From the IMG/VR virus record IMGVR_UViG_3300037311_000179: 64,000 nt of DNA; one strand, written 5' to 3'. Within the stretch, counting starts at the first letter, position 1. The number at the start of each line of letters is the position of its first letter. The translations under genes were made by a program, and so were the position numbers. The DNA comes from a virus. A model generated the notes under the pieces. The model was not told the DNA's origin, did not search any database, and worked only from the letters and a program-made list of their open reading frames with translations. Of this stretch, positions 2,019 to 57,051 are shown piece after piece.

Positions 2019-3383
2019 CTAGCGCGACCTGCCTCTCCTTCGACCGCCAGATCGCTTCGAGCCCCTATACGCTCTCCGAGAACGATGCTCTACATGCACT
2101 TCGCTTCGCTCCACAGGATCGAGGCTGTAGCACCACTTCTTGTGGTCCTTGTGAACGTTCTCCTGGCCTTTCGAGTGAATCCATCGAAGACATGCCGCCA
2201 CAGATCCAGGCGTCATCCAGCGAATGCCGCTCTGAATGTCTTCTACTGAGAGCCACTTCCCGGCATTGGATTTCAGATATTCAAGAACGTCTTTTGCCCC
2301 GAAGCGACGGCCCGGATGAGTGATCGATGATCCGGGACGAGCGTACGGAAGCTGCAACTCTTTCGCGGCGTCTCGAATCTCTTGAAGCGTCTCATTTTCG
2401 ATCTGCCTCACACGCTCTTTACTTACTCCAATGACCGCGCCGATCTCTTCGAGCGTCATCGGATTGAAATCTTCCCCGCGGTCAATTCCGTATCGCAACT
2501 GCAATAGTTGGACTGATCGTGGAGGCAGCTCGCAGTACCGGATCAAGTCTTGAACGACGTATCTGACATCTTCTAGGTTCTCGGCGTCATCGATCTCATT
2601 GGCGTTTTCAGGCAGTCTGAACGAATCATGTGCGTCGGAATATCCGCGATCATCGGAATCGGCTCCGCGAAATGGAGCATCGAGATACATGACCCGAGCC
2701 GTCGGAGGCGTTACCGCGCTGATCACGTCGTTGACGTTCTCTCGGAGAGATTCCGCGACATCGGTGATCGAAATCGACCCGTTCTTCTTGGAAGAAACCG
2801 CTTCGATTTTCTTGCGAAGCGCTCGATCTCGGTCGTGCTTGTGTACTGGAATGCGAATGTCAGAAGCGTGATTGCAGACGTACCGCTTCATGAATGCGCG
2901 AATCCACCACACGGCATACGTAGAGAATACGTGCCCGCGACCGACGTCGAAGCGCTCCGCCGCCCGCTTGATGCCGAAGAATCCTTCCTGCTCGATCTCT
3001 GTACAGTCGATCGCTGGGGCCGACCGCGCGTACATCGAGGCCAGGTTCTTCACGATGCCGGTGTTCAGGACGACGAGCTCTCCGAGCGTGTGTCGTAGCA
3101 TGTGGTCGCAAACACGAATGTCGCGACCAGCCGCCGCCGACAGCTTGGACGCCGACTTGGCTGCCAGGACGACGATCTCTCTGTTCTCGTCCATCGACCT
3201 GAGCTCTTCGAGCGACATCGGATCAGATCGCTTGTAGGCGTCGAGAATGTACGTCCCGCCCGCAGCTAAGATCTCGGCGTTCACGAAGGCCGGACCCACC
3301 GCCAAGATCGCACTCCAGCGGTCTCGTTCGAGCTCTTGATACCGAGCGACGAGCTCGATGTTTCTCGAAAAATCCTGCTTCAC
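2019..3383 (-). CDS. sigma-70 (RpoD/RpoH-like) RNA polymerase sigma factor with C-terminal extension
   Basis: Region 2 EQEGFFGIKRAAERFDVGRGHVFSTYAVWWIR, IRIPVH, region 4 MTLEEIGAVIGVSKERVRQIE; extra roughly 90 aa wHTH-like tail. Confidence 0.9.
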   Translation of the reverse strand: MKQDFSRNIELVARYQELERDRWSAILAVGPAFVNAEILAAGGTYILDAYKRSDPMSLEELRSMDENREIVVLAAKSASKLSAAAGRDIRVCDHMLRHTLGELVVLNTGIVKNLASMYARSAPAIDCTEIEQEGFFGIKRAAERFDVGRGHVFSTYAVWWIRAFMKRYVCNHASDIRIPVHKHDRDRALRKKIEAVSSKKNGSISITDVAESLRENVNDVISAVTPPTARVMYLDAPFRGADSDDRGYSDAHDSFRLPENANEIDDAENLEDVRYVVQDLIRYCELPPRSVQLLQLRYGIDRGEDFNPMTLEEIGAVIGVSKERVRQIENETLQEIRDAAKELQLPYARPGSSITHPGRRFGAKDVLEYLKSNAGKWLSVEDIQSGIRWMTPGSVAACLRWIHSKGQENVHKDHKKWCYSLDPVERSEVHVEHRSRRAYRGSKRSGGRRRGRSR

Positions 3384-8518: not shown

Positions 8519-9337
8519 ATGCTGATCGCGATTGGCGCTCTGACTGCGTGGGAGTCTCTCTGGTGGGCTCGGAGGCGGCTGCGGCGCTCTCAGGCGTTCG
8601 AACAGGCCGCAGCTCGGGCCGCGGAGCTGGATCGCCCGCTGGTCGTCGTGGGCTCCCCGGACGGTGGCGTCACGGCCGGGTACGGCTGCGGAGACATCAC
8701 CGTCGACATCGCTCCAACATCTACGTGTCCTACCTACATTCAGGCTGACATCACACAACGTATTCCAATGGCAGATGACTCCTGCGTTGTGTACGTCTCC
8801 TGCGTGCTCGAATACGTGGAAGATCTGGAAGCGGCCATGCGAGAGATCGACCGCGTCTCCGGCGGCGAGCGGCTCATCGTCCACGTCGAGCCGTGGACCG
8901 TCGCCGCGTACGCCTACCCAGGGGCGAAGCGAACGATTCCGTCGGGCCTGATGGACTCGCAGCGCTTCATGCCGAACGCAGACGCGACGCTCCGGTCCCA
9001 GGGCGGCTTCGCCCCGCTCCGGCTTCAGATCGCGGCGACGCCCGAGGACCGGGCGCTCGGGCTGATGTGGCGCTTCGCCCTGCCAGCGCGGGTGGGCATG
9101 CTCTTCGTCTGGCCGGAGGTCGGTCGCTACGGCTTCTGGATGCGCAGCACGTTCATCCCCCTCGACGTGATCTTCCTCGACGAAGAGCTCCGCGTGATCG
9201 AGATCTTCGCCAACGCCGAGCCGTGCTCGGAGGAGGTGTTCGAAGTGGATGGGGCCAAGTACATGCTCGAAGTCGCTGCGGGCTTGAGCGAGCAGATCGG
9301 CCTCCGCCGTGGGGATCGGCTGGTGGTTGCGCCATGA
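8519..9337 (+). CDS. membrane-anchored methyltransferase-like domain fused to DUF192
   Basis: N-terminal hydrophobic helix; YGCGDITVDI...IPMADDSCVVYVSCVLEYVEDLEAAMREIDRV (SAM-MTase-like); C-terminal ATPEDRALGLMWR..GMLFVW..FWMRSTFIPLDVIFLD..YMLEV (DUF192). Confidence 0.7.
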   Translation: MLIAIGALTAWESLWWARRRLRRSQAFEQAAARAAELDRPLVVVGSPDGGVTAGYGCGDITVDIAPTSTCPTYIQADITQRIPMADDSCVVYVSCVLEYVEDLEAAMREIDRVSGGERLIVHVEPWTVAAYAYPGAKRTIPSGLMDSQRFMPNADATLRSQGGFAPLRLQIAATPEDRALGLMWRFALPARVGMLFVWPEVGRYGFWMRSTFIPLDVIFLDEELRVIEIFANAEPCSEEVFEVDGAKYMLEVAAGLSEQIGLRRGDRLVVAP

Positions 9338-45710: not shown

Positions 45711-46546
45711 CAGTTGAGCACTCCGCACTGAATTCGATACGAAAAGATCTCTGATGTCTTTCCCGCAGCGACGTACTGGACGGGATCTGCGAGTTCCAGA
45801 TCCATGCCGATCGCGACGGCCATCAGCCTGTCGATGTCTTCGGAGAGAATGAGAACCGACTGATTGTCGACCTGCTGACGGAGCTTGTCGATGTCTTCGT
45901 GAAACCCCTCGCACCTTGATGGCCCGACGAGCTCTTCCACCGATACGTTCGGGCAAGGCGGCATGATCGTGATCTGGTCGATACATCCGCACTTGTGGTG
46001 CGAGACATTGATGATTGCAGTCATGTTCTCGGGGCTGAATCCGATGACGTGCTGCTGGGCGTACTCGAACAGCAGCTCGCACACAGCCGCGTGGGCGTAG
46101 AGACGGAGATCTTCGTCGATCTCGTACACCCGCACTGCCAGATGAGTGTCGGTCCAGGATACGAGCCGAAGCTCCGGTTGTTCGACGTCGTTACGGCACA
46201 TAGCCGCCATCTTCTCGATGGTCTCTTCGCCGTAGTCTCGGATGGGCTCCAAGTCAGGAGCCTCCATGATGCGGCGAAGCTGCGCACCATCCCCGCCCAA
46301 CATCGCGTGGATGTTTTCGATCCCTTCGATGACGAAGAGATCCTTCGTCAGAGTCTTTCCGCCGTCGGGTGGATGCGAGAACAGATTGGCTGTCGCTCTC
46401 GCCATCTGCACGCGGTTTTGCAGATGCGTCAGGAAGTCAGCGTCCGATTCTGGATTCCGGCGCATGAGCATTCCTGCCTTCCGCAGATTCTCCTCGTACG
46501 CATCGAGGATGTTCGCGTGAACCTTGATCGGCCCCAGGCGGCTCAT
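45710..46546 (-). CDS. hypothetical protein
   Basis: MSRLGPIK start with ATGA overlap; MRRNPE. Confidence 0.6.
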   Translation of the reverse strand: MSRLGPIKVHANILDAYEENLRKAGMLMRRNPESDADFLTHLQNRVQMARATANLFSHPPDGGKTLTKDLFVIEGIENIHAMLGGDGAQLRRIMEAPDLEPIRDYGEETIEKMAAMCRNDVEQPELRLVSWTDTHLAVRVYEIDEDLRLYAHAAVCELLFEYAQQHVIGFSPENMTAIINVSHHKCGCIDQITIMPPCPNVSVEELVGPSRCEGFHEDIDKLRQQVDNQSVLILSEDIDRLMAVAIGMDLELADPVQYVAAGKTSEIFSYRIQCGVLN

Positions 46547-46839
46547 GGCTGACCGTCGCCCTCTCCGCCGTTCTTCGGCGCGATCTTCAGCCCTGGGATC
46601 GGACCAAGGTCGATGCCGATCTTCTCGCACCCGGCGATCATCAGGATGATCGCGACCGCACTGGGATCGGAGGGGTTCTTGGCGTCGATGCGGCTCGCGA
46701 GGTCCCGGAACTCCTCGGGCATGCTCTTCATGCCGCTCTCGATGATCTTGCCCGCGACGGCACGGATGACCGCGCTTGCTGCGGGACTGACTGAGATACG
46801 TTCGCGCTCTGACATCTTCATTTCACTTTCCGCGAGCAT
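46543..46839 (-). CDS. hypothetical protein
   Basis: Operon context; start uncertain. Confidence 0.5.
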   Translation of the reverse strand: MLAESEMKMSERERISVSPAASAVIRAVAGKIIESGMKSMPEEFRDLASRIDAKNPSDPSAVAIILMIAGCEKIGIDLGPIPGLKIAPKNGGEGDGQP

Positions 46840-47074
46840 TCTTGCCCGACTCCGAGATGCGGTACTCGTACGAACACACCTTCCCGCGAGCGTCAAAGAT
46901 CTCCTGACGTTCGACGAGCCCAAACGAAAGAAGCCTCCACGCATTGCGGCTGCGCTCCCCCATCACCTTCGGTGGGTGCCACGCTCCGGGAGATGCGTCA
47001 TCGGCCTTCCCGAGCAGCTCCAAGGCGTCGCGCTGCGGCCTCGTCAGTGTTCTAGCTGGATTGCCTTCGCTCAT
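46823..47074 (-). CDS. small winged-helix-like protein
   Basis: LTRPQRDALELL..WRLLSFGLVER..YRISESG. Confidence 0.5.
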   Translation of the reverse strand: MSEGNPARTLTRPQRDALELLGKADDASPGAWHPPKVMGERSRNAWRLLSFGLVERQEIFDARGKVCSYEYRISESGKNARGK

Positions 47075-47157
47075 GATCGAGGCGACTCTGCCATCGATCT
47101 AATCGAGGCGGAAGAGCCTCTGATCGTCCCACTCGCTATCGCTCCCCCGCGCGAATC

Positions 47158-47301
47158 CTAAAATTGGATCTCCTCAGCCTCCTCTTCCCGGAACCATCTG
47201 GCGATCTTCAACGCTCCACGCATGGCGAGGAAACCGCAGGCGTGAGCCATAGAGCCTGCGATGAAGAGAGCGGACAGGATGAGCAGTACGACAGCTTTCA
47301 T
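47158..47301 (-). CDS. small membrane protein
   Basis: MKAVVLLILSALFIAG; GGAGG upstream of next gene; first ORF after the array. Confidence 0.45.
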   Translation of the reverse strand: MKAVVLLILSALFIAGSMAHACGFLAMRGALKIARWFREEEAEEIQF

Positions 47302-47327
47302 GCCGGAGAAATAGCACAGACTGATTG

Positions 47328-50012
47328 CCTTGGTGTGCATCGGGCCGACTCGGCAAGCGCCGCGACGCCTTGCCTTACAGACGGCTCATCGTCGCCTGTA
47401 TAAGAGCCCACCAGCAGATTCGAACTGCTGTGTTCCCGATATGGGCTAAGTTCCTTGGATTGAATAGCAGCGCGACGCTGGACCAAGGGTTGCATTGCGC
47501 CGAGTTATCCGAAATCAAACGTTCGAGCGACACCTTGGATTGCAACGCGAGGCTAGGCATTGGGAGGCACGAGCACGCCGCGGTTGGATGATTCTGAACG
47601 ATGCCTTGGATTAGTATGGATGACCGCACACAGGCGAGCGCTGCCGGGCGCAGCCGCCAATGCAGAGATCAATTCCTTGGATTGCAACGCGAGGCGAGGC
47701 GCTGGATCGCGGAGCGCCGACTCGCGCCGTGTGGTATCGAAATTTTCCTTGGATTGCATTGCACAGGACCGCAATGACCTGCGACACACTGCCACGCCTA
47801 ACGTCGATCGGCACCGGAGTGCAGACTCAGACCACCCGAACCTCACCAGAGATCCGGCTTTATCCTTGGAGCTCATTGCTCAGCCCTAGATTTCCCAGGA
47901 GGGGACTGCGGAGCATGGATATGTAGATGCTACTCAAATTCTCTTCTCGTATCAACCTTGGATTTCCATGTACTGCTCCAGAGCGCATCGGTTCGACCCG
48001 AATCGGATCGCACGGATTCATTTGATATCGAATAGCCTTGGATTGCTGCGGCGCAGGACGGTGCGGGCCGCCGCGACACGCAAGAAGTGAGTGATGTGTC
48101 TACTGGATCGCCGTTGTGCCAGCGAACGGCATTGCAAGAGATTGCCTTGGGATAGGACGCGACGCATCGCCCCGTAAACCGCGACGCTGCCGGATAAAGA
48201 CGATGATCCTGACAATTCCAGAATGAAGGTCCCTTGGATTGCGTTGACTCGGGAAGAATCGCGCTGCGAAGGACAGCAGAGGCAAGCGTTGAAAGTCTGA
48301 AATTGCGTCGATAGTACCGAGAGCGATTCCTTGGATTGGATGGGGTCGACACGGAGAGACTCGGGCAGCTAAGACCAGCCACGACTCGCGATGTACGCAT
48401 TCGAACAATATACGATTGGACGCTATTGCGTCTGTAACAGCCGCCTTGGATTACACAACAACGCCGTAGCAGGGACAGCGACGGATCGGAATGCGGATGA
48501 TGTCTCGACGCTCTTGTGTCTGGAGTAATTGCCTTGGATTGCAACGCGCAGCAAGAGGAGGAGCTGCCACGGATGACGTCGCTGCGGACCAGTCGTTCGT
48601 AGAATTTACCTTGGAATAGGTAGCTGGTGACTTGCAACGGGATACGATGCAGCGGCTCGCGACACTTTGAATTGCCATATCGGATGAGACGGCTGCATGC
48701 CTCGTGATTCTAAAACCTTGCTTTGCTCAGACGCGCAATGCTTCGGAAAGCCATAGGGAGGCGGGCGAAGCAACGCGCAGTATCATCGAATTCAAGCCTT
48801 GCCGTGCTGAGGGAAGGGTCAGATCGCGCAGACTCGCCCCGCGCCAGACCGTTTTCGGAAATAGTCATCCTTGCAATGCGAAACAAAAGAGCGGCTGGCA
48901 TCGCCTCGGACAGCATCGGCCCGTGAGTAGTCTACAACAATCCCGTGGAGTGCAGAAGGCTGCCTGAGTTTGCGCCGCCCCGCACCGACAGCGGCGTGAA
49001 TTCCATGTGATCCTTGGATTGATTCGCATTGGGCGGCTGCGGCGCAGGGGGCACAGGATAGGGCGGCACAGCAGCTCCCGGCAGCGATCGAAAACAATGC
49101 CTTGAAATGCAATGGGCTGCCTGAGCGCAGCGATGCGCTGCGACGCAATACGTCTGGAAGTCTCGACACGCATGATCCTTGGACTGCTACGCACTGGCTG
49201 GCACCGCGTCGCCTTACCGTGCAACAGGGTGCCACGATCTGCGCGTCTAAACGTCATGCAATTATCCTTGGAATACCGCGCAGCGGCTAGCCTCGACAGG
49301 CCGAGGGTGGCCTCGCGATGCCCATTCATTGATCACGCTACTCCGCGTACGCAGCGCAACAAGGATGACGAGACTCAGGCTTCGCAGTGCCGGTGGGGAA
49401 GATGAGATTTCAGAGATCTAAGGCGCTCGCAGAACGAACGCTCGATGCGTCGAAATGCCTTGATTAGCTATGGGGCGGGCGACTACGCCGCGCAGATGTC
49501 GGTGCCGTAATTCTTTATTCGAAGACTTGATTTGCCGTAGAGGAGATTGCCACGCGAAGCGGTGGTAGGCACTGTGATTCTGTTTTCTAGAATCCTTGGC
49601 TCGCCGCGCACAAGGCTGCCTCGCCGGAGCTGGGATGGCCGTGTGGTGCTAGCTCTCGGAGCCTCTCCTTACAGAAACTCATGATTTATCGCAACACCTT
49701 GGATTGCCATGCAACAGTATGCTTGGCCGGAGTGGGGAGGACCTAGTGTTTCCTGTTCTAAACCATTGCCTTGCAGCACCACAGCACGCATAGCCTGAGC
49801 GCGCGTTACGCCGCCCCACGATACATGGCTGCGATCTACATCCGTTTTATTCGTTTATCCTTGGATTGAATTGGATCGCCGCGCCAAGCGTGACCCGGCG
49901 CTGGGGGAGGCAGGTGATCGCTGCTTGATATCTCGACCCGTTATCACAGAAACCTTGGAGCGCATTGCGCGGACGTGGCGTACGCAGGCTCGCGATGCGC
50001 AGGATTGAGCAG
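47328..50012 (-). ncRNA. non-CRISPR guide-RNA-like array: about 30 units of Y(G/C)Y-NN pentamer runs ending in CAATCCAAGG (VIPR-like)
   Basis: CCTTGG (+) found at 47328, 47453, 47533, 47604, 47675, 47747, 47864, 47956, 48036, 48145, 48232, 48329, 48444, 48532, 48609, 49012, 49177, 49266, 49594, 49697, 49859, 49953, with variants near 48716, 48797, 48869, 48943, 49100, 49458, 49525, 49769; spacing mostly 69-117 nt; purine at every 5th base in phase with the anchor for about 10-15 periods; no credible ORF. The repeat is seen directly; RNA function is inferred. Confidence 0.8.
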
Positions 50013-50023
50013 AATTTGATCCG

Positions 50024-50782
50024 TCAGCCTTCGGACGACGGCTGATCCGTCTTCGCTCCCTTCTCGCGCGAGGGACGGGTTCTCTTCGGCGTCCCTTCGG
50101 CCTTGGCGCTCTCGCCGTCCTTGGTGTCGATCTGGCTGCGATGAAGCGTCCAGTTGTCGACGCGGAAGCGTCCGTAGGGACCCTTCTTCTGGGGCCGAAA
50201 GTCTCCGAGCCCGATCTCGTTGCCCGCGCGATCGACGATCTCGCGGACGGTCCGCTCCTGGTACTCTCGCAGGTTCGCTTCGATCACGAAGCGAAGCGCC
50301 CACCGATCGAACTGCGGGCGGCAGATACCGACGGCTTGGCCGCCGTTGGGGTTGGTGCCCTTCATGAGCGACATGACCCATGAAGCCTCTTGCGTGTTGT
50401 CCGCGGGATCGATCACCCGCGTGTACTCGCCGGAGAGGGTCATGATCGCCGCGAGCTTGCTGGAGTCCGCCGTCGAGACCTGCTTCTTGCCGTCGAGACG
50501 AACCGAACGACCAGCTTCGGCGAACGCGGAGAACAGGTTGCGCATCGGGATGCTGATGCGGCCGTCGGCGTCGCGGTAGATCTTCTCTTGGCACTGCTGG
50601 TCTGGATCGAGCTTCGGCGCGTTCTTGGACGGCTTCTCGCCGGTGACGAGCGTCATGAGGGCTTCCTGGCTCATGCGGTTCATGAGCAGAGGCGAGATGC
50701 CGACGAGATAGACCTCGATGAACGTCGTGCCGTTGCGTCCGCGAGTGGTGCCGAGGTTTTCTGGTGCGTTTCCGTCCATCAT
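50024..50782 (-). CDS. stand-alone Cas7/RAMP-like protein (Vipr-like)
   Basis: IEVYLVGISPLLMN (RAMP beta-1), DADGRISIPMRNLFSAFAEAG (RAMP IPgSslKG-like), RPQFDRWALRF, Gly-rich loop AGNEIGLGDFRPQKKGPYGRF; AAGGA SD before ATG 50782. Confidence 0.8.
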   Translation of the reverse strand: MMDGNAPENLGTTRGRNGTTFIEVYLVGISPLLMNRMSQEALMTLVTGEKPSKNAPKLDPDQQCQEKIYRDADGRISIPMRNLFSAFAEAGRSVRLDGKKQVSTADSSKLAAIMTLSGEYTRVIDPADNTQEASWVMSLMKGTNPNGGQAVGICRPQFDRWALRFVIEANLREYQERTVREIVDRAGNEIGLGDFRPQKKGPYGRFRVDNWTLHRSQIDTKDGESAKAEGTPKRTRPSREKGAKTDQPSSEG

Positions 50783-50868
50783 GGGTTCCTTGGGGTGGTT
50801 GGTTGAAACAATCGAACAACCCAACCATGCACCATCGAAGGCGAGTATGGAACCCTCCGAAATCGATA

Positions 50869-51717
50869 TCAGTAGGGCCTGTAATTCGAGATGTAGTCCG
50901 TGCAGATCTTCTCGAAAAACGAATTCGTATCCGCGATGGATGGAAGCACCCCCATGATTGGTAGCGCTGCCTTCGATTCGTCTTTTCTCATCCGTCGCAT
51001 GAAGCTGTCGTAGACACCCTGATGAAGTTGATCCGCCGCCTTTCTGAACGTTTCGAACGCAACATCATCGCTGGCGTCCAGCTTCCAGAAGATCCCCCTC
51101 ATGAACCACGCGAGCGCCAACGATCCAGGAAACGGTTGATACTGAATCTCCGCCATTTCAGCCAATATCGCATTGGCGGCGCTCTCGAACTGCCTGATGT
51201 TTCTGAAGTCGATCTCGTCCTCCTCGTACAACTCAAGCAGTTGAAGCGACTCCTGGATGAACGATACGATGATCTGCGACTGATCCTCCTCGAAGGTCAG
51301 CGGGTGGTAAATCTCGCGGTGCTCATCGTAGGACTTGAGCAGCATGGCCCTGACGCACCCTACTCCGAGCAGGTCGTTGTAGGAGATCAGACTGGCGACG
51401 AACGTTCCCAGATTCAGTTTGCGGAAATGATCGAAGATCGTCTGCCTTGCCGCGTCCGCGCCAGCCTCGCCGTGGTCCCTGTAGATGCTGCTCAGTCGCA
51501 CATCGAGATCCAGAATACGCGGCTTTCCCAGCGTGAACTGGCTCTCCAATTCCAGCAAATCGTCAACTGCCTCCGGCTCGACGAACTGAGCAGCTAGCAG
51601 CACCCAGATCTGAGAAAGGCATCCGATCTCCAGCCCCTTCTGAACGTTCGGATGGCCCTCGATCTTCTCGTAGATGCTGGCATTCACCAGCGGGTATTCT
51701 GGCAATGGTTGATTCAT
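50869..51717 (-). CDS. hypothetical protein, probable remote member of the paralog family
   Basis: VLLAAQFVEPEAVDDL / HGEAGADAARQTI / LISYNDLLGVGC align by eye with VLCAAIVDPANAEDA / RGATGIDLALQI / IITWDRLVGVWC. Confidence 0.55.
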   Translation of the reverse strand: MNQPLPEYPLVNASIYEKIEGHPNVQKGLEIGCLSQIWVLLAAQFVEPEAVDDLLELESQFTLGKPRILDLDVRLSSIYRDHGEAGADAARQTIFDHFRKLNLGTFVASLISYNDLLGVGCVRAMLLKSYDEHREIYHPLTFEEDQSQIIVSFIQESLQLLELYEEDEIDFRNIRQFESAANAILAEMAEIQYQPFPGSLALAWFMRGIFWKLDASDDVAFETFRKAADQLHQGVYDSFMRRMRKDESKAALPIMGVLPSIADTNSFFEKICTDYISNYRPY

Positions 51718-51742
51718 CCCCCCGTCTGTACCACGGCCTGAA

Positions 51743-54700
51743 CTACTGCGAGGGGATCTTGACCTCGCAGACCTCTCCGTCGCAGTACCGATCTTCGCGC
51801 CCCTCGTCGTGAGTAGGACCTCGCAGTGCGCCGAAGTCCATCGGACGCAGGCTGGATGTCGCCGCGTAGTACTCGGCCTCGGAGATTGGCGTGTACGGAG
51901 CCTGAATGTACCCCGCGTCGCTCATGGGCAGGAAGCTGCACGTCTTCCATCGATCGGAGAACATCGCGAGCACCCGGCGAACCTCAGCCGTCTCCTCGGG
52001 GCGGAACGACAGCGTGACCGAGACCATGTTGTCGCTCCAATACGTTTGGAGCATCGTCAGTACTTCGGCCTTTTCCCAGATCGAGACCTCGCTATCCGTT
52101 CGGGTCTTGCTTTCGATCTTGACCGGGAAGTACGCGACCGAAGTACTCGGAGCGTAGAAGTCCTGCTCGATTCGATACCCCGCGGCCCGAAGCACTTCGA
52201 GCAGAGGGTTGCCGTGGTCGATGCGCACGAGCCGGTAGTAGAATTTCGCGGTCGGCCACTTCATGCCGCCCTCGACATTCCACAGGAGCGGCGATGTCCC
52301 TCCCGGCTTCACCGAGGTCAACCTCACGGAGCGTCCAACGCCCATCCAAGAGCTGTACTCTTCGTCGAGCTCGCGAAGGAATCGATACCCCTCGTCGAGC
52401 CAGCGCCGGGTCTCCTGCGCCCCCAGTCGGTCGTACAGATCCGCGATGCCCGCAGTGGAGATCCCGAGCCGGTGGTTGCGAGCCATCACCGCGTTGGCCT
52501 TGGGATCGTGGGTGGGAATGCACGAAATCGTCTTGCCGAGGACGTAGGCGTACTTGAGCGAGCGCTTCCAGTCTTCGAGCGAATCGTGCCTCGACGGGAA
52601 TGTCTCCGGCACGTTGCAGAGCTCGTGATGTTCGAGACCGATCTCGCCGCAGTTGTGGACGACGATGCCGTTTCCGACGAACGAAGACGTCGATGGTTCA
52701 GTGAGATCGTATACGTCCTCGACGCCGCACTCGTAGAGCGACTCCAGTTCCGATGTGAACGGCTCCGTCTTCACCGCGCGAGATTTCTTTGAGAGCAATT
52801 GCGCCAAGAACCGATCCATGTTCTTCGACAAAAAACCGATCTCCTCTGCGAAACGATCGAGACTACCGCCCCGAATCGAAAGATCGCAGCATGTGATGTC
52901 TCCGTTTTGCTCTGCGGAATACGCCGGAGCCGTAGAGAATGTCCGCTTGGTGCTGGAGAAGATCCTGAAATTCAGCAGGATTTGCTGAATCTTTCGGGCG
53001 GTATCAACGGTGAGAAACGCAAACGAAAGCGTCGGACCTTCCGTGTAGTCGAGATAGACTCGACCACCTGCGGTGAACATGGCTTCGAGGAATCCTCTCT
53101 GAAAGTCGCGCGTGCCTCGCCAGAGCAATTCTTCATTTCTGACGAAGCTGAGGTCTCGGAGATGAGGGTGTCTCAGAAATTGGCAGTCCGCTTCATCCTC
53201 TTTCGTGCGAGCGCTCAAATCGCCGGACGCACGCCAGAAGCGCGTGAGCACTGTCGATCTGTGCTCCGCTGACCTCCCCCGGAAGCGAAGCTCCTGCGTT
53301 TCGCCGTCATCCCCGCCGGTGCCAGCCATCCATCCTGCCACCACGCCGGAATCGTAATCGCCGAGATCTCCGAATGCTCCTTCGGTCGATGCGATATGGA
53401 TCAAATCCCACTCTTGGAGCTTGCACGCTTCGACCCATCCACGAGACGTCATCACGCGATGATCCGCAGTGAGGCGCAGCGCGTATCCGTCGGTCGTGGT
53501 CAAGCGATAGACCATCTTCGATCCAGTGAGGAAAGCTCCCGACTCGGTTGTCGATCCCTTCGGCCTGCCGGTCCGCAAGTCCAGGACAAGATCGCGCTGC
53601 ACACCGACCAAAGAGTCGATCCTCTCCATGCCCCGAGACGTCATCACGCGGGTATCGCCAGTGACGCACGGGTTCACCAGGATCACCCGCTCGTTTCCGG
53701 GCATCGGAGGATCTGCGAGTCGGCCGCGCTTCTGGATGCGATCCATCCAAACGTTTCCGGGCTCGCCGTTCCGATCGCGTGCCTCTGCGATCCGGCTGAA
53801 GTCTGTGCCCTCTTCAGAGAGGACCGCGTTGTTTGAGGCCCAGCGATGCGTCGAGAGCGGGTGAGCCCACTCCAGGGCCGAGAGACGTTGCCATTCCTCG
53901 TCCGCAGCGTACGCAGCGTCGATCTCGGCGTTGATCTCGTTCAGACGCCTCTGTTTCTCGGCGACCGCTTCCGGCGAGAATTCGGTGGCGTGAACCAGTT
54001 CGTAAGCGAGATCGGTCTTCTCGTTGTACTTCTCTTCGTTTGCAGCCGCAGCCAACCTCCACTCGTTCCTGACGTGGATTTCGCGCATCACCCTGCGCCG
54101 CCGGAGGTCTCGCAGCTCGGTGTCGTCCTTGAGCGCGATGAAATCGTCGTCATTGATCTCGCCGATGATGATCTCGGAGGACCGGCGATTGCCCCCGGCC
54201 ACGACGCAGACTCCGATCATGTTCGCGATGTCAGCGATCATCGAGCTCGTGATCACCTTGCCGACGTGAGGCGAGAGCAGCGCTTCTACTTCGCGCAGCA
54301 GCCGCCGCAGAGGCTCTGGACCTCCCGACCTGCCACCGAACGACATGAGCGGCGCTCCGGCCGGTCTGATGAGCGACAGATCGTATCTGCGGGGCACTTC
54401 AGCACCATGGCCGTACCCACGCAGCAGCACGCCCAGCGCCTCCACCCATCCCTCGCGCGAATCCTTGACGACGAAAACCTCTTCCGTCACTCGCGGCTGC
54501 TGGATCGTCAGCGTCCCCTCCCCGCGCACATCGGTGCCGACACCTGCGCCGCACATCAGCAGGTCCATCATCCAGCAGAACGGCTCGGCGAAGTCGTCTG
54601 CGATGAATTTCGTGGAAACGGCTGCGCAGTTGAAAAGTGGTGCCGATCCCTTCTCTTCGAGCGCCTTGGTCCCGAGGAACCAAAGCATTCGCCCCGAGCC

Positions 54701-55057
54701 GGTGAATTTCCCCTGCCAGTACCGCGTGAAGAACTCCTCCGCGTGCCGGTGCGCGATGCTCTCTTCCCAGTGCTGCCCGAGGAGCTTGAGCTGCTGTCGC
54801 TGGCGCGAGTAGATCTCCTCGGTGTTCCGCTGGCAGACCTCCCACCACTCTTCACTGCCCTCCGTCGGCAGCCCGAACTTTTCGCGCTGCCACTTCTGCT
54901 CTTCGGTCAGATCTCGCGCGTAGGTGCGCTTGAAAACTGGGTACCCGACCGGACCCCACTCCGGCTGCTTTCCCGCGAACTGCCGAAGAAACGTCTCGCG
55001 CAATCGGAAACGAAACTTCGGGAACAGTGGGGCCACGTAGTCAATTCGCTCGTCCAT
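51743..55057 (-). CDS. nrdJ: class II (B12-dependent) ribonucleotide reductase with intein
   Basis: VFKRTYAR, GSGRMLW, LFNCA, LMCGAGVG, VVAGGNRRSSEI, WASNN, NP|CGEI after intein removal, TSVKPGGT, WSDNMVSVT. Confidence 0.92.
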   Translation of the reverse strand: MDERIDYVAPLFPKFRFRLRETFLRQFAGKQPEWGPVGYPVFKRTYARDLTEEQKWQREKFGLPTEGSEEWWEVCQRNTEEIYSRQRQQLKLLGQHWEESIAHRHAEEFFTRYWQGKFTGSGRMLWFLGTKALEEKGSAPLFNCAAVSTKFIADDFAEPFCWMMDLLMCGAGVGTDVRGEGTLTIQQPRVTEEVFVVKDSREGWVEALGVLLRGYGHGAEVPRRYDLSLIRPAGAPLMSFGGRSGGPEPLRRLLREVEALLSPHVGKVITSSMIADIANMIGVCVVAGGNRRSSEIIIGEINDDDFIALKDDTELRDLRRRRVMREIHVRNEWRLAAAANEEKYNEKTDLAYELVHATEFSPEAVAEKQRRLNEINAEIDAAYAADEEWQRLSALEWAHPLSTHRWASNNAVLSEEGTDFSRIAEARDRNGEPGNVWMDRIQKRGRLADPPMPGNERVILVNPCVTGDTRVMTSRGMERIDSLVGVQRDLVLDLRTGRPKGSTTESGAFLTGSKMVYRLTTTDGYALRLTADHRVMTSRGWVEACKLQEWDLIHIASTEGAFGDLGDYDSGVVAGWMAGTGGDDGETQELRFRGRSAEHRSTVLTRFWRASGDLSARTKEDEADCQFLRHPHLRDLSFVRNEELLWRGTRDFQRGFLEAMFTAGGRVYLDYTEGPTLSFAFLTVDTARKIQQILLNFRIFSSTKRTFSTAPAYSAEQNGDITCCDLSIRGGSLDRFAEEIGFLSKNMDRFLAQLLSKKSRAVKTEPFTSELESLYECGVEDVYDLTEPSTSSFVGNGIVVHNCGEIGLEHHELCNVPETFPSRHDSLEDWKRSLKYAYVLGKTISCIPTHDPKANAVMARNHRLGISTAGIADLYDRLGAQETRRWLDEGYRFLRELDEEYSSWMGVGRSVRLTSVKPGGTSPLLWNVEGGMKWPTAKFYYRLVRIDHGNPLLEVLRAAGYRIEQDFYAPSTSVAYFPVKIESKTRTDSEVSIWEKAEVLTMLQTYWSDNMVSVTLSFRPEETAEVRRVLAMFSDRWKTCSFLPMSDAGYIQAPYTPISEAEYYAATSSLRPMDFGALRGPTHDEGREDRYCDGEVCEVKIPSQ
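52652..53668 (-). mobile_element. intein (339 aa) with LAGLIDADG-like homing endonuclease remnant
   Basis: Begins CVTGDTRV, block B LRLTADHRV, ends VYDLT..SFVGNGIVVHN before extein Cys; internal GVVAGWMAGTGG and GFLEAMFTAGG blocks. Confidence 0.92.
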
Positions 55058-55067
55058 GTCGTCTCCT

Positions 55068-55886
55068 CTATTTCAGATAGATCACGGGCAATCCGATTGC
55101 CAGCTTCTGATTTTCGTCGAGATTGTTCTCCAGGCCACACTTGTTGCAGTTCATATCAAGCGTGGCCCGCGTCAGTTCTTCGTCCGTCGAGTAGATCGTC
55201 CCGATCTTCCAGCACTCGTTCGACTCCCCCGCGTGGATCGAGCCGTCCCACGAGATCGAGGGCGAGCACATACTCCACATCTTGCCTGTTTTGAAGGCCA
55301 TTGTGGCGGAGTACGTGCGCATGAAGCGGATGGCCGACGCCACGCTGCCCTGGCTGCGGACGAGCGATCGGAAGTTGAACGACGTCGGATGCTTGAGCGT
55401 CCTCAGAGATCCGTCATCCGTCGCTTTCTTCTGCTTTCGCTCCGTCAGCCTTCCGAGCGGCAGAAGAGCGGTCAGAGACTCCACGTAGGAGACCCGTGGA
55501 TCGTCGATTCGCACGGGCCGAAGCGCCTCTGGGCAGAATCTCGGATCGTGCGTCACCTGCACGAAAACCTGAGAGCCTTTCGCGAGAATGGCGTTTCGAA
55601 CCTTCGGGTTGGAGAGCCATTGCCCATTGGTGATGATGAGCGGAATGAGCTCCATCCCCCTGACGACCTCTACCAAGTCCACGAAATTCGGGTGCTCGGA
55701 GCACTCTCCGCCGCTGATGAGAACGACCTTGGGTGCCCCCAGAGCCCACGCGGGAACTTCCATTTTGTGCGTCCACTCGATCGCGTCGACGAATGTGTCC
55801 GCGCTCATGTGCTCGCCTTGGACCGTGGAATTCTCCATGCAGTGCGAGCACCCCGCGGAACAGTAGTTGGTGATTTTGATGAGCAT
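55068..55886 (-). CDS. radical SAM protein
   Basis: ITNYCSAGCSHCME (CxxxCxxC), LISGGECSEHP, IITNG; SPASM/twitch-like CSPSISWDGSIHAG..NCNKC. Confidence 0.85.
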   Translation of the reverse strand: MLIKITNYCSAGCSHCMENSTVQGEHMSADTFVDAIEWTHKMEVPAWALGAPKVVLISGGECSEHPNFVDLVEVVRGMELIPLIITNGQWLSNPKVRNAILAKGSQVFVQVTHDPRFCPEALRPVRIDDPRVSYVESLTALLPLGRLTERKQKKATDDGSLRTLKHPTSFNFRSLVRSQGSVASAIRFMRTYSATMAFKTGKMWSMCSPSISWDGSIHAGESNECWKIGTIYSTDEELTRATLDMNCNKCGLENNLDENQKLAIGLPVIYLK

Positions 55887-55971
55887 CGTAGCGTCTCCTG
55901 AGCCGGAGACACTGCCACAACTCGACGCTCTATCCGAGCTCAGAGTGAGGCTATCGATCGCATACTCCCCG

Positions 55972-57051
55972 CTAGATGCGATCAGGAATCTGCGCGTTTT
56001 TCTGGATTTGCCTTCCGAACGCTGATCCGTAGATCGATCCGAGCCGGTACGATTTCAGCCAATGCGCGTCGAGCAGATCGGTGAGCCGGGAAACGCCTTG
56101 CTGCGCATCCATTACCCAAACGTCATCAGGATTGTCATTGAACTGATCGAGCAATGCAGTCGAGTGACTGGTAAGAACGACTGTCAAATCCATCGCTGCG
56201 GCTCTCTCTCGAATGACCTGCACGAGCTGTTCGATGGCACGCGGATGCAAACCGTTGTCCGGCTGGTCGAACATCAATGTCGATCCGGCGGTGCATTCAG
56301 CTACCCCAGACAGCGTCAGGAGTGCGCGGAGTTCGCCGGACGACATGATTTCCAGCGGACGCAGCAAGTTCTTGTCTGCGCTCGGGAACATGACGTTCAT
56401 GCAGGATCTCACCCACACGAATCTCTCGTCGTCGTGCTCTCTCCATTGTCTGAATGCTGCGGAAGCATGCTTTGCCATGCGCTGTCCAGGTACGGACGGT
56501 TCCGGTATTACGCTGTTTCGAAACGATTCGATTTGGAATGCCGAGAAGACGGACAGCTTCCTAAGCTGCCTGAGAAACGATTCGACCGGAATTCCCCAAG
56601 GCACCACGCTTCGATGCACCTCGTTGAGCCGAGGATACCCTTCTGTGTTCGCCAGCGGAGAATGGCGCGAGTGCTTAGCCAAGTCGATATTCTCTCCGCC
56701 GCATGTGAGCTCTTCAGACGCCCGAATAGGAGACCCGCTAGCATCATCGAAGATCGATAGCGACCATGTGAGGCAACCGTTCGAAATTGTGATTCTCGCC
56801 GGGCCGTTCGAAGCCTGGATATTGATCACGGTATGTGGCGATCCAGTCGCCTTGATACCATTTGCGAGAGTTCCATCGAGCGCGATGCGCATGAGCATGA
56901 ACGCCGATAGAATCGTCGACTTTCCGCTTCCGTTCGGCCCTACCAGAGCGCAAACGCCCTGTGGCTTCCACTTCGCGTACTTCACCCCGCGGAAGTTCTC
57001 GATGGTGATCTCTAGAGGTCCCGTGAGACCGTCTTTTACTTGCTCGTCCAT
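55972..57051 (-). CDS. AAA_21/ABC-type ATPase
   Basis: ITIENFRG, LVGPNGSGKST, MSSGELR signature, LMFDQPDNGLHP, VLTSHS. Confidence 0.85.
   Translation of the reverse strand: MDEQVKDGLTGPLEITIENFRGVKYAKWKPQGVCALVGPNGSGKSTILSAFMLMRIALDGTLANGIKATGSPHTVINIQASNGPARITISNGCLTWSLSIFDDASGSPIRASEELTCGGENIDLAKHSRHSPLANTEGYPRLNEVHRSVVPWGIPVESFLRQLRKLSVFSAFQIESFRNSVIPEPSVPGQRMAKHASAAFRQWREHDDERFVWVRSCMNVMFPSADKNLLRPLEIMSSGELRALLTLSGVAECTAGSTLMFDQPDNGLHPRAIEQLVQVIRERAAAMDLTVVLTSHSTALLDQFNDNPDDVWVMDAQQGVSRLTDLLDAHWLKSYRLGSIYGSAFGRQIQKNAQIPDRI

What the first reader, a model, noticed from the sequence alone, without database searches (positions are those of the whole stretch)
47328..50782. Stand-alone Cas7/RAMP-like gene plus a 2.7-kb pentamer-periodic RNA array: candidate programmable RNA-guided system
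Seen: a roughly 252-aa ORF with RAMP hallmarks (VGISPLLMN beta-1, GRISIP..L..A..EAG, C-terminal GxGLGDFRPxxxGxYGRF Gly-rich loop). Its stop codon (50024) is followed about 11 nt later, on the same strand, by about 30 non-coding units. No cas1/2/3/5/6, no nuclease and no canonical CRISPR repeat is recognisable in the window. Established: Cas7-family RAMPs polymerise along guide RNA with a fixed nucleotide step per subunit. Inference: a 5-nt period fits one subunit per pentamer, so the protein and array likely form a minimal RNA-guided DNA-binding complex, for example silencing rival phages or host genes. From memory, which I cannot verify here, a recently reported phage VIPR system (Vipr protein + GGY/NN vrRNAs) has this architecture, so this may be a divergent member rather than wholly new.
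Basis: partly seen in the sequence, partly recalled or inferred. Interest (0 to 1): 0.95.

Follow-up and report, generated by a model that had tools for sequence, protein, structure and literature searches.

The report
Phage VIPR system with 28 guides
An uncultivated freshwater/wastewater phage carries a VIPR system, the CRISPR-related RNA-guided DNA-silencing system first described in 2026 preprints: one Cas7-like Vipr protein followed by an unusually long array of 28 five-base-periodic guide RNA units, so it is a new example of a known kind rather than a new system.

Summary

- **Protein.** ORF 50024-50782 (minus strand, 252 aa) is a Vipr protein. A profile of its family matches the solved SUSP1 Vipr over its full length (E 2.7e-18). 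Its five best distinct AlphaFold-DB fold matches are the five seed proteins named in the VIPR discovery paper. PDB fold matches are Csm3/Cas7.
- **Array.** Eleven bases after the stop codon, on the same strand, 28 units (47328-50012) each carry about 11 pentamers. The pattern is C/T-N-N-(not A)-G/C, and each unit closes with GCAATCCAAGG.
- **Linkage.** 64 of 84 homologous loci have a period-5 tract abutting the gene.
- **What differs from SUSP1.**
  - The constant triplet is relaxed.
  - The array is the longest of about 90 loci inspected.
  - There is no structured tail; linkers are short and AT-rich.
  - Sister phages instead punctuate nearly every unit with a tRNA-like minihelix; this window keeps one.
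  - Strains in other metagenomes differ by whole-unit deletions and swaps.
- **Code.** One guide shared with a sister phage is identical at pentamer positions 2-3 over 7 pentamers and not elsewhere. This supports the published NN code.
- **Not shown.** No target was found, and expression was not demonstrated.

This scan has noted VIPR loci before on other DNA (61 notes, at least 54 genomes).

The parts
50024..50782 (-). vipr gene (252 aa; a lone RAMP/Cas7-like protein). The last ~40 residues are a basic, low-confidence tail that the closest homologues lack.
   Evidence: phrog_4652; profile against SUSP1 Vipr, PDB 36pp, E 2.7e-18; AF2 model, pLDDT 84; Csm3/Cas7 fold; the five VIPR seed proteins as top AFDB hits. 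D193, R195 and R154 (numbering of P0001, the 251-aa form from the second Met) are invariant in the family. They align with SUSP1 D177, R179 and R138.
47328..50012 (-). vrRNA array: 28 units, each with about 10-13 pentamers (C/T)-N-N-(not A)-(G/C), then the constant 3' handle GCAATCCAAGG, then an AT-rich linker
47675..47746 (-). Example of a compact unit (72 nt): a 17-nt AT-rich linker, 9 variable pentamers, then the handle GCAATCCAAGG at 47685-47675
48444..48531 (-). Unit W48448. Its guide shares positions 2-3 of 7 consecutive pentamers with a guide of sister phage L082 (tract ending at the CAAGG at 9040)
47405..47447 (-). The only tRNA-like minihelix in the array, lying between the last two units. 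It has a 7-bp outer stem, a 10-nt linker, and a 6-bp stem with the T-loop UUCGAAU.
   Evidence: model R2, 25.3 bits, E 3.6e-5, filters off
47158..47340 (-). Small hydrophobic ORF (60 aa, or 47 aa from the second ATG) directly after the array. An ORF of similar size sits at the same place in L082.
46823..47074 (-). 83-aa winged-helix protein downstream of the array; candidate accessory (vap-like) DNA-binding protein
   Evidence: Atlas structure matches PadR / HTH_20 / Cdc6 winged helix, TM 0.65-0.75. (55% identical homologue at the same position downstream of the L082 array).
50869..51717 (-). 282-aa helical ORF between the ribonucleotide reductase gene and vipr. No family match. Not conserved next to vipr in sister phages, so probably not part of the system.

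Best explanation
This is a phage-borne VIPR (Viral Interference Programmable Repeat) system.

Proposed mechanism:
1. The array is most likely transcribed with or just after vipr as a long precursor on the minus strand.
2. The precursor is cut in the AT-rich linkers into about 28 guide RNAs of roughly 60-75 nt.
3. Vipr protomers bind one per pentamer. They hold the constant bases (pentamer positions 4, 5 and 1, a relaxed form of GGY) and present positions 2-3 (NN).
4. The filament then reads double-stranded DNA through the published gapped code: two paired bases, one skipped.
5. It blocks transcription of the bound gene, presumably in rival phages, satellites or prophages of the same host.

Shown here: family membership, fold, conserved RNA-contact residues, array anatomy, gene-array linkage across relatives, and selective conservation of positions 2-3 in a guide shared between phages.

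Inferred by homology only: transcription, processing, RNA binding, the 1-nt skip, DNA silencing and the identity of the targets.
For: Protein:
- The profile of 52 homologues matches SUSP1 Vipr (PDB 36pp) over its full length at E 2.7e-18.
- AFDB Foldseek ranks 1, 2, 4, 5 and 6 are X1U2U4, A0A0F9A1L0, A0A661D0E2, A0A1F4YLN4 and A0A2D6XG06. These are the five seeds listed in the VIPR paper's methods.
- PDB fold hits are Csm3 and type VII Cas7.
- D193 and R154 align with SUSP1 D177 and R138, whose alanine mutants abolish silencing. They are invariant in the family, as is R195, which aligns with R179.

Array:
- 28 units sit on the gene's strand with a strict 5-nt register.
- 10-13 repeats per unit falls within the published 9-16.
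- YNNNG-type repeats are listed as a known alternative consensus.

Linkage:
- 64 of 84 homologous loci have a period-5 tract within 450 nt of the gene. The threshold was the 99th percentile of 1299 control windows.
- Sister phages share the synteny MazG - RNR - vipr - array and the CAAGG handle.

Code:
- W48448 and the L082 guide ending at 9040 are identical at positions 2-3 in 7 consecutive pentamers (14/14). They match at only 11/21 of positions 1, 4 and 5.
- The next-best cross-lineage run is 4. The same test on positions 3-4 or 2+4 never exceeds 4.

Context:
- The window is phage-like: primase-helicase, class II RNR with an intein, MazG, dNMP phosphatase and a sigma factor.
- Strains in two other metagenomes keep the locus but differ by whole units.
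Against: - No RNA evidence. No run on record as RNA holds the array. Run X7, labelled 'RNA?', has two 151-nt contigs that lie on the array without a listed difference. That is only a hint, and the tool says the run is probably DNA.
- No target was found. No rule beat shuffled controls on about 0.9 Mb of related viral DNA. Exact NN+1-skip patterns gave 0 hits at 20 specified bases in three collections. At 16-18 specified bases the counts were at chance level and the flanks did not extend.
- The constant triplet is relaxed: G1 is lost, and SUSP1 H17 and W178 are N and F here. The pairing rule could therefore differ.
- There is no conserved structured 3' tail.
- No accessory gene is established.
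- No per-unit sigma-70 promoters or terminators appear above chance.
Confidence: 0.9

Rival explanations
1. A decaying VIPR locus. The protein is intact, but most units have lost the structured element that sister phages keep in nearly every unit. On this view few or no units still give working guides.
For: Only 1 of 28 units has the tRNA-like minihelix. Sister arrays have it in nearly every unit. Some units have register shifts or long degenerate inserts.
Against: 24 of 29 CAAGG sites keep a near-perfect pentamer register, scoring 17 or more of 20. The handle is invariant. The whole array is retained at about 90-97% identity in two other metagenomes, with changes by whole units rather than random decay. 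Tail-less and otherwise varied array architectures are reported for VIPR.
Confidence: 0.06
2. A Vipr-RNA filament with a different read-out from the published one. It might read three or four bases per pentamer, use another skip length, or act on RNA rather than DNA.
For: Positions 4 and 5 are only partly constrained. Two G-contacting residues of SUSP1 Vipr are replaced, H17 by N and W178 by F. No target was found under the published rule.
Against: In the guide shared between two phages only positions 2-3 are selectively conserved. N at the H17 position is nearly invariant across the family. Sampled family members at about 35-40% identity use canonical GGY-NN repeats. No other rule found targets either.
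Confidence: 0.1
3. Not an RNA array at all: either a chance or compositional periodicity, or a repetitive protein-coding region.
For: ORFs of up to 235 aa can be drawn through the region.
Against: Period-3 power is depressed and period-5 power raised only in this region. The register resets at every handle. The same architecture follows vipr homologues in many unrelated contigs.
Confidence: 0.01

Closest known systems
VIPR systems, in particular the type II system of Escherichia phage SUSP1 (Vipr + vap1 + vrRNAs). Sources: bioRxiv 10.64898/2026.04.26.720920, 10.64898/2026.04.26.720927 and 10.64898/2026.10.15.759431; PDB 36pp.
   Same: - A lone RAMP protein homologous to SUSP1 Vipr, with the key RNA-contact residues conserved.
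- Phage-encoded, with no cas genes or CRISPR repeats.
- Guide units of 10-13 pentamers with a pyrimidine plus two hypervariable bases, on the gene's strand, in an array next to the gene.
   Different: - The constant part is relaxed from GGY to (not A)-(G/C)-(C/T).
- There are 28 units in one array, against 4 in SUSP1.
- There is no pseudoknotted 3' tail, only an 11-nt constant handle and AT-rich linkers.
- No vap1 homologue was identified; a small winged-helix gene lies downstream.
- The Vipr has a ~40-aa basic C-terminal extension.
VIPR variants listed in the discovery paper: alternative repeats (NNNGG, YNNNG, NNNNG), and staggered or hammerhead-ribozyme-interspersed arrays
   Same: A YNNNG-like consensus, and guide units punctuated by something other than a type II tail.
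   Different: - No hammerhead or other Rfam family occurs in the array.
- In sister phages the punctuation is a tRNA-like acceptor/T-arm minihelix.
- The main texts of two of the three VIPR papers contain no occurrence of 'tRNA'. The third paper, the figures and the supplements were not checked.
Class 1 CRISPR Cas7 backbone filaments (Csm3 of type III-A, Cas7 of type VII)
   Same: The RRM/G-loop/thumb fold, and one subunit per fixed step along a guide RNA with periodic base flipping.
   Different: No CRISPR repeats, no Cas5/6/10/11 or adaptation genes, a 5-nt rather than 6-nt step, and phage-encoded.
tRNA-like processing signals: plant mitochondrial t-elements and engineered tRNA-gRNA arrays
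   Same: In sister phages a tRNA top-half mimic separates successive small RNAs. This suggests release by RNase P and RNase Z.
   Different: It applies to one unit only in this window, and processing was not tested.

Membership tests
VIPR system | Vipr protein: a minimal RAMP (RRM core, G-loop, thumb) in the Vipr clade | tested here: met
   The family profile matches SUSP1 Vipr (PDB 36pp) at E 2.7e-18 over residues 1-190 of 202. The five published seed proteins are the top AFDB fold hits, with X1U2U4 at E 4e-14 and TM 0.84 by hit. Csm3/Cas7 are the top PDB fold hits.
VIPR system | Conserved residues that hold the constant bases (SUSP1 D177, R179, R138; also H17 and W178) | tested here: inconclusive
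   D193, R195 and R154 align with these and are invariant in 52 homologues. H17 is replaced by N34 and W178 by F. The assignment rests on sequence alignment only.
VIPR system | vrRNA made of tandem pentamers with conserved GGY, or a related consensus, alternating with variable NN | tested here: met
   28 units of about 11 pentamers. Position 1 is always a pyrimidine in the counted set, which excluded the few non-pyrimidine pentamers. Position 5 is G/C in 88%, position 4 is not A in 90%, and positions 2-3 are variable. This is the relaxed YNNNG-type consensus that the paper lists.
VIPR system | An invariable, structured 3' tail after the repeat tract (a pseudoknot in the SUSP1 clade) | tested here: not met
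   Only an 11-nt constant handle, GCAATCCAAGG, is present. Positions +1 to +45 after it carry almost no information and the linkers do not fold. The paper treats tails and array architecture as variable between types, so this does not exclude membership.
VIPR system | Non-CRISPR, minimal locus in a virus or provirus | tested here: met
   The gene content is phage-like. No Cas or PADLOC hit was found for Vipr or its neighbours apart from an unrelated ABC ATPase. No CRISPR repeat family reaches threshold.
VIPR system | An accessory vap gene beside vipr | tested here: inconclusive
   The upstream 282-aa ORF has no family match and is absent from three of four sister loci. An 83-aa winged-helix ORF downstream of the array is conserved in L082. 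No sequence of vap1-6 was available for comparison.
VIPR system | vrRNAs are expressed, co-purify with Vipr, and direct dsDNA binding by the 1-nt skip rule | not testable with these tools
   There is only indirect support: positions 2-3 are selectively conserved in a guide shared between two phages. No RNA run was found and no natural target was found.
CRISPR-Cas class 1 (type III/VII-like) | A CRISPR repeat-spacer array plus Cas5/Cas6/large-subunit or adaptation genes | tested here: not met
   There are no direct repeats of CRISPR type, no Rfam CRISPR-DR above threshold, and no cas genes among the neighbours scanned.

The most novel reading that the evidence does not exclude
In this Vipr clade the mature guides are tail-less: a pentamer tract ending in GCAATCCAAGG. 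They would be released from a long precursor by host RNA-processing enzymes rather than by a Vipr-specific tail. In sister phages the cuts would fall at tRNA-like acceptor/T-arm minihelices (RNase P / RNase Z). In this phage they would fall at AU-rich linkers that replaced all but one minihelix. That would be an array architecture not mentioned in the main texts of the two VIPR papers I term-searched. Together with the whole-unit gain, loss and swap seen between strains, it would make this 28-guide array a natural multiplexed, cassette-like guide arsenal.
Probability: 0.3. Interest if true: 0.55.

Novelty: new member of a known kind. Interest (0 to 1): 0.35.

Why it matters
VIPR was described only in 2026, so each well-characterised natural locus helps define its range.

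- This locus shows that a relaxed repeat, in which only a C/T and a G/C are kept, can still carry a large arsenal of 28 guides.
- A guide shared between two phages indicates that positions 2-3 are the bases under selection even in this relaxed form.
- Arrays in this clade change between strains by whole units.
- Sister phages separate their guides with tRNA-like minihelices. If these are cut by host tRNA enzymes, nature already uses the design of engineered tRNA-guide arrays, which would be useful for multiplexing VIPR tools.

None of this changes the basic picture: the system itself is already known.

Tried and rejected
**Target searches (all negative)**
- I tested nine pairing rules: NN, NNN or NNNN read, with 0-3 skipped bases. 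All 28 window guides were run against the rest of the window plus about 0.9 Mb of related viral loci. None exceeded shuffled guides, and there was no self-target.
- The same test with five rules and 41 guides of sister arrays was also negative.
- Exact NN+1-skip patterns:
  - W48448 with 20 specified bases gave 0 hits in viral, metagenome and genome collections.
  - W48448 with 16 specified bases gave 15 hits, which are 6 independent loci. Nearly all were low-GC phages, several had stop codons in frame, and the flanks did not extend.
  - W47679 gave one 18/18 hit, in a 65% GC viral contig (L107).
  - W48536 gave one 18/18 hit, in a 45% GC contig (L108).
  - Both single hits are at the expected chance count of about 0.4-1. 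The skipped base falls on codon position 1, the flanks do not match, and no other guide converges on those contigs.
  - W47751 gave 0 hits.

**Other tests that led nowhere**
- A codon-likeness test of pentamer positions 2-4 gave the same signal for positions 1-3. It reflects general dinucleotide bias and was dropped.
- Decoding guides into degenerate peptides gave no recognisable motif.
- Per-unit sigma-70 promoters and terminators were at chance level.
- Rfam gave no hammerhead, tRNA or CRISPR-DR match, and ARAGORN found no tRNA.
- Megablast of 20 kb against deposited phages gave no match.
- No whole genome is held for this window.
- The VIPR type (I-VII) could not be assigned, because the figures and tables that define the types are not held.
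Full report
**What is there**

On the minus strand, an ORF runs from 50782 to 50024 (252 aa). Its stop codon is at 50026-50024. Eleven bases later, at 50012, a non-coding region of 2.7 kb begins on the same strand.

That region holds 29 CAAGG sites. One lies inside another unit, which leaves 28 units of 71-192 nt, median 89 nt. When each unit is read backwards from CAAGG in steps of five, about ten pentamers fall into one register:
- Position 1 is C (83%) or T (17%).
- Position 5 is G (59%) or C (29%).
- Position 4 is rarely A (10%).
- Positions 2 and 3 are close to uniform.
- The last two pentamers are nearly constant (CAATC CAAGG, usually preceded by G).

After CAAGG there is no conserved sequence, only a linker that is 59% A+T and mostly unstructured. 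Its median length by the tract-calling rule is 24 nt, and it is 15-22 nt in the compact 71-80-nt units.

The periodicity is not chance. Period-5 power is 1.30 in the array against 0.71 +/- 0.42 elsewhere, and it is raised only in the 47-50 kb bins. Period-3 power is depressed there. The pyrimidine/strong-base score upstream of CAAGG is 17.8 of 20 in the array, against 10.8 +/- 2.0 (maximum 15) at the 106 other CAAGG sites of the window. There are therefore no orphan units elsewhere.

**The protein**

Pfam finds nothing, and PHROGs assigns the ORF to phrog_4652, of unknown function. The large protein collection holds 98 homologues, none named.

A profile of 52 of them matches one solved protein over its full length: PDB 36pp, 'SUSP1 Vipr protein', at E 2.7e-18. 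The single sequence reaches only E 0.062, at the G-loop.

An AlphaFold2 model (pLDDT 84) finds Csm3 and type VII Cas7 subunits in the PDB at E about 4e-6. In AlphaFold-DB clusters its ranks 1, 2, 4, 5 and 6 are X1U2U4, A0A0F9A1L0, A0A661D0E2, A0A1F4YLN4 and A0A2D6XG06. These are the five accessions the VIPR discovery paper names as its founding hits.

The residues that hold the constant guanines and pyrimidine in SUSP1 Vipr are D177, R179 and R138. Alanine mutants of D177 and R138 lose silencing. These align with D193, R195 and R154, which are invariant in the family. H17 and W178 are replaced by N and F.

**Is it known?**

Yes. Three 2026 preprints describe VIPR:
- A phage-encoded minimal RAMP with guide RNAs of 9-16 YNNGG pentamers.
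- One protomer per pentamer.
- The NN bases pair with dsDNA while one target base is skipped.
- The result is transcriptional silencing of rival phages and satellites.
- There are seven types, alternative repeats (NNNGG, YNNNG, NNNNG) and several array architectures.

This scan has itself noted VIPR loci 61 times in at least 54 genomes.

**Linkage of gene and array**

Among 84 loci that encode homologues, 64 have a period-5 tract within 450 nt of the gene that exceeds the 99th percentile of 1299 distant control windows. Most of these loci are viral contigs.

The sampled relatives at about 35-40% identity mostly use canonical GGC/GGT-NN repeats.

The closest relatives (53-63% identity; loci L081-L083 and L101-L104) share several features with the window:
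- The synteny MazG - class II ribonucleotide reductase - vipr - array (L081-L083 and L101; L102-L104 are too short to show it).
- The relaxed C-NNN-S pentamer.
- The CAAGG ending.

The window's 2.7-kb array is the longest I saw in about 90 loci. The next longest are 1.8 kb in L101 and 1.5 kb in L082.

**Which bases are read**

One window guide (the unit ending at 48448) and one guide of L082 (ending at 9040) are identical at pentamer positions 2-3 over seven consecutive pentamers (14 of 14). At positions 1, 4 and 5 they match at only 11 of 21.

Among 2192 cross-lineage guide pairs the next-longest such run is four. The same test on positions 3-4 or 2+4 never exceeds four.

This is what selection on a shared target predicts if only positions 2-3 specify it. 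It supports the published NN code for this relaxed repeat. It is a single case.

**Targets**

I did not find any.
- Nine pairing rules on the rest of the window plus about 0.9 Mb of related viral DNA gave nothing above shuffled guides. There was no self-targeting. Sister-array guides gave the same result.
- Exact NN+1-skip patterns gave no hit at 20 specified bases in the viral, metagenome and genome collections.
- At 16-18 specified bases the counts were at chance level. The flanks did not extend, the skipped base was off the wobble position, and no second guide converged on the same contig.
- Exact-match scans are a blunt tool for this. The published work used a threshold of at least 80% NN match.

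**Array architecture in the clade**

In the sister arrays, nearly every unit has a tRNA-like minihelix between CAAGG and the next tract:
- A 4-8-bp outer stem.
- An 8-12-nt linker, which in L101/L103 and the window contains GGAA.
- A 4-6-bp inner stem.
- A 7-nt T-loop (TTCGAGT in L101/L103; TGCAANT in L082/L083).

Both stems vary by compensatory changes. Covariance models find 19 copies in L101/L103 with R2, and 16 copies in the arrays of L082, L083 and L104 with R1. R2 finds none in the 80 more distant loci.

With filters off, the window has exactly one copy, at 47408-47444 (E 3.6e-5). The window's lineage has therefore replaced this punctuation by short AT-rich linkers.

A reading that fits both cases is that the mature guide in this clade is the tract plus the handle, and that the element between units is only a cutting signal. 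The signal would be RNase P/Z at minihelices and an AU-preferring RNase at linkers. This is inference.

The main texts of two of the three VIPR papers contain no occurrence of 'tRNA'. I did not search the third paper for the term, and could not see the figures or supplements.

**Strain variation**

Contigs from two other metagenomes carry the locus.
- The activated-sludge strain (about 97% identical) lacks exactly 165 nt. That equals two units (77 + 88 nt), and the deletion is bounded by an 11-nt handle repeat.
- The freshwater strain (about 90-93% identical) shows unit-sized deletions (88 and 93 nt) and replacements (77 by 82, 94 by 93, 315 by 321 nt).

Arrays therefore turn over by whole units, most simply by recombination between handles.

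**Neighbours**

All neighbouring genes are on the minus strand.
- Upstream lie a class II ribonucleotide reductase with an intein and a 282-aa helical ORF. The ORF has no family match and is missing from three of four sister loci.
- Downstream of the array lie a small hydrophobic ORF and an 83-aa winged-helix protein. Its homologue (55% identical) sits at the same place in L082. It is a candidate accessory DNA-binding protein, but this is unproven.
- No Cas protein or nuclease was seen among the neighbours scanned.

**Expression**

No run on record as RNA holds the array. One wastewater run labelled as cDNA has two 151-nt contigs that lie on the array with no listed difference. The tool judges that run to be probably DNA. 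There are no per-unit sigma-70 promoters or terminators above chance. That fits a long precursor, but the phage has its own sigma factor.

**Verdict**

This is a genuine VIPR system and a new member of a known kind. Its useful particulars are a relaxed repeat, 28 guides, no structured tail, and unit-wise turnover. The tRNA-like punctuation in its sister phages is a side observation that may be a new array architecture.

Noticed in passing
L101:6900-8540, L103:1046-1550, L082:8709-10066, L083:8734-9519, L104:3324-3360 (sister phage arrays): Nearly every vrRNA unit is followed by a tRNA-like acceptor/T-arm minihelix: a 4-8-bp outer stem, an 8-12-nt linker (with GGAA in L101/L103), a 4-6-bp stem and a 7-nt T-loop. 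Both stems show compensatory changes. It is absent from 80 more distant Vipr loci, and 'tRNA' does not occur in the main texts of the two VIPR papers searched.
   Followed up: partly
window 46500-51800 compared with runs X2 and X3: Strains of this phage in an activated-sludge and a freshwater metagenome differ from the window by whole-unit deletions and replacements (165 = 77 + 88 nt; 88; 93; 77 replaced by 82; 315 replaced by 321 nt). The flanking genes stay 90-97% identical.
   Followed up: partly
window 55972-57051 (-) and the adjacent 272-aa gene (about 55070-55890, -; equal to L085:894-1712): An ABC-type ATPase matches the defence-system models HEC-01A, AriA and AbiL (E down to 5e-27). 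Next to it is a radical-SAM protein with a weak prokaryotic-viperin match (E 1e-6). This may be a phage-borne defence or counter-defence pair.
   Followed up: no
window 51743-55057 (-): A class II (B12-dependent) ribonucleotide reductase is interrupted by an intein with a LAGLIDADG homing-endonuclease domain. Sister phages have it with the intein (L082, L083) or without it (L081, L101).
   Followed up: no
window 50024-50140 (-), Vipr residues about 213-252: This Vipr has a ~40-aa lysine/arginine-rich, low-confidence C-terminal extension. Its closest homologues (210-222 aa) lack it.
   Followed up: no
L008:5830-6230: In a more distant Vipr locus (42% identity) the GGT-NN tracts are separated by a repeated hairpin element, CTAATCTCCGCGAGCCGAAAGGCTCGCAT. 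It may be another kind of unit punctuation or tail.
   Followed up: no
window 2019-3383 (-): The phage encodes its own sigma-factor-like protein (phrog_351, E 3e-35). Array promoters, if there are any, need not look like sigma-70 sites.
   Followed up: no
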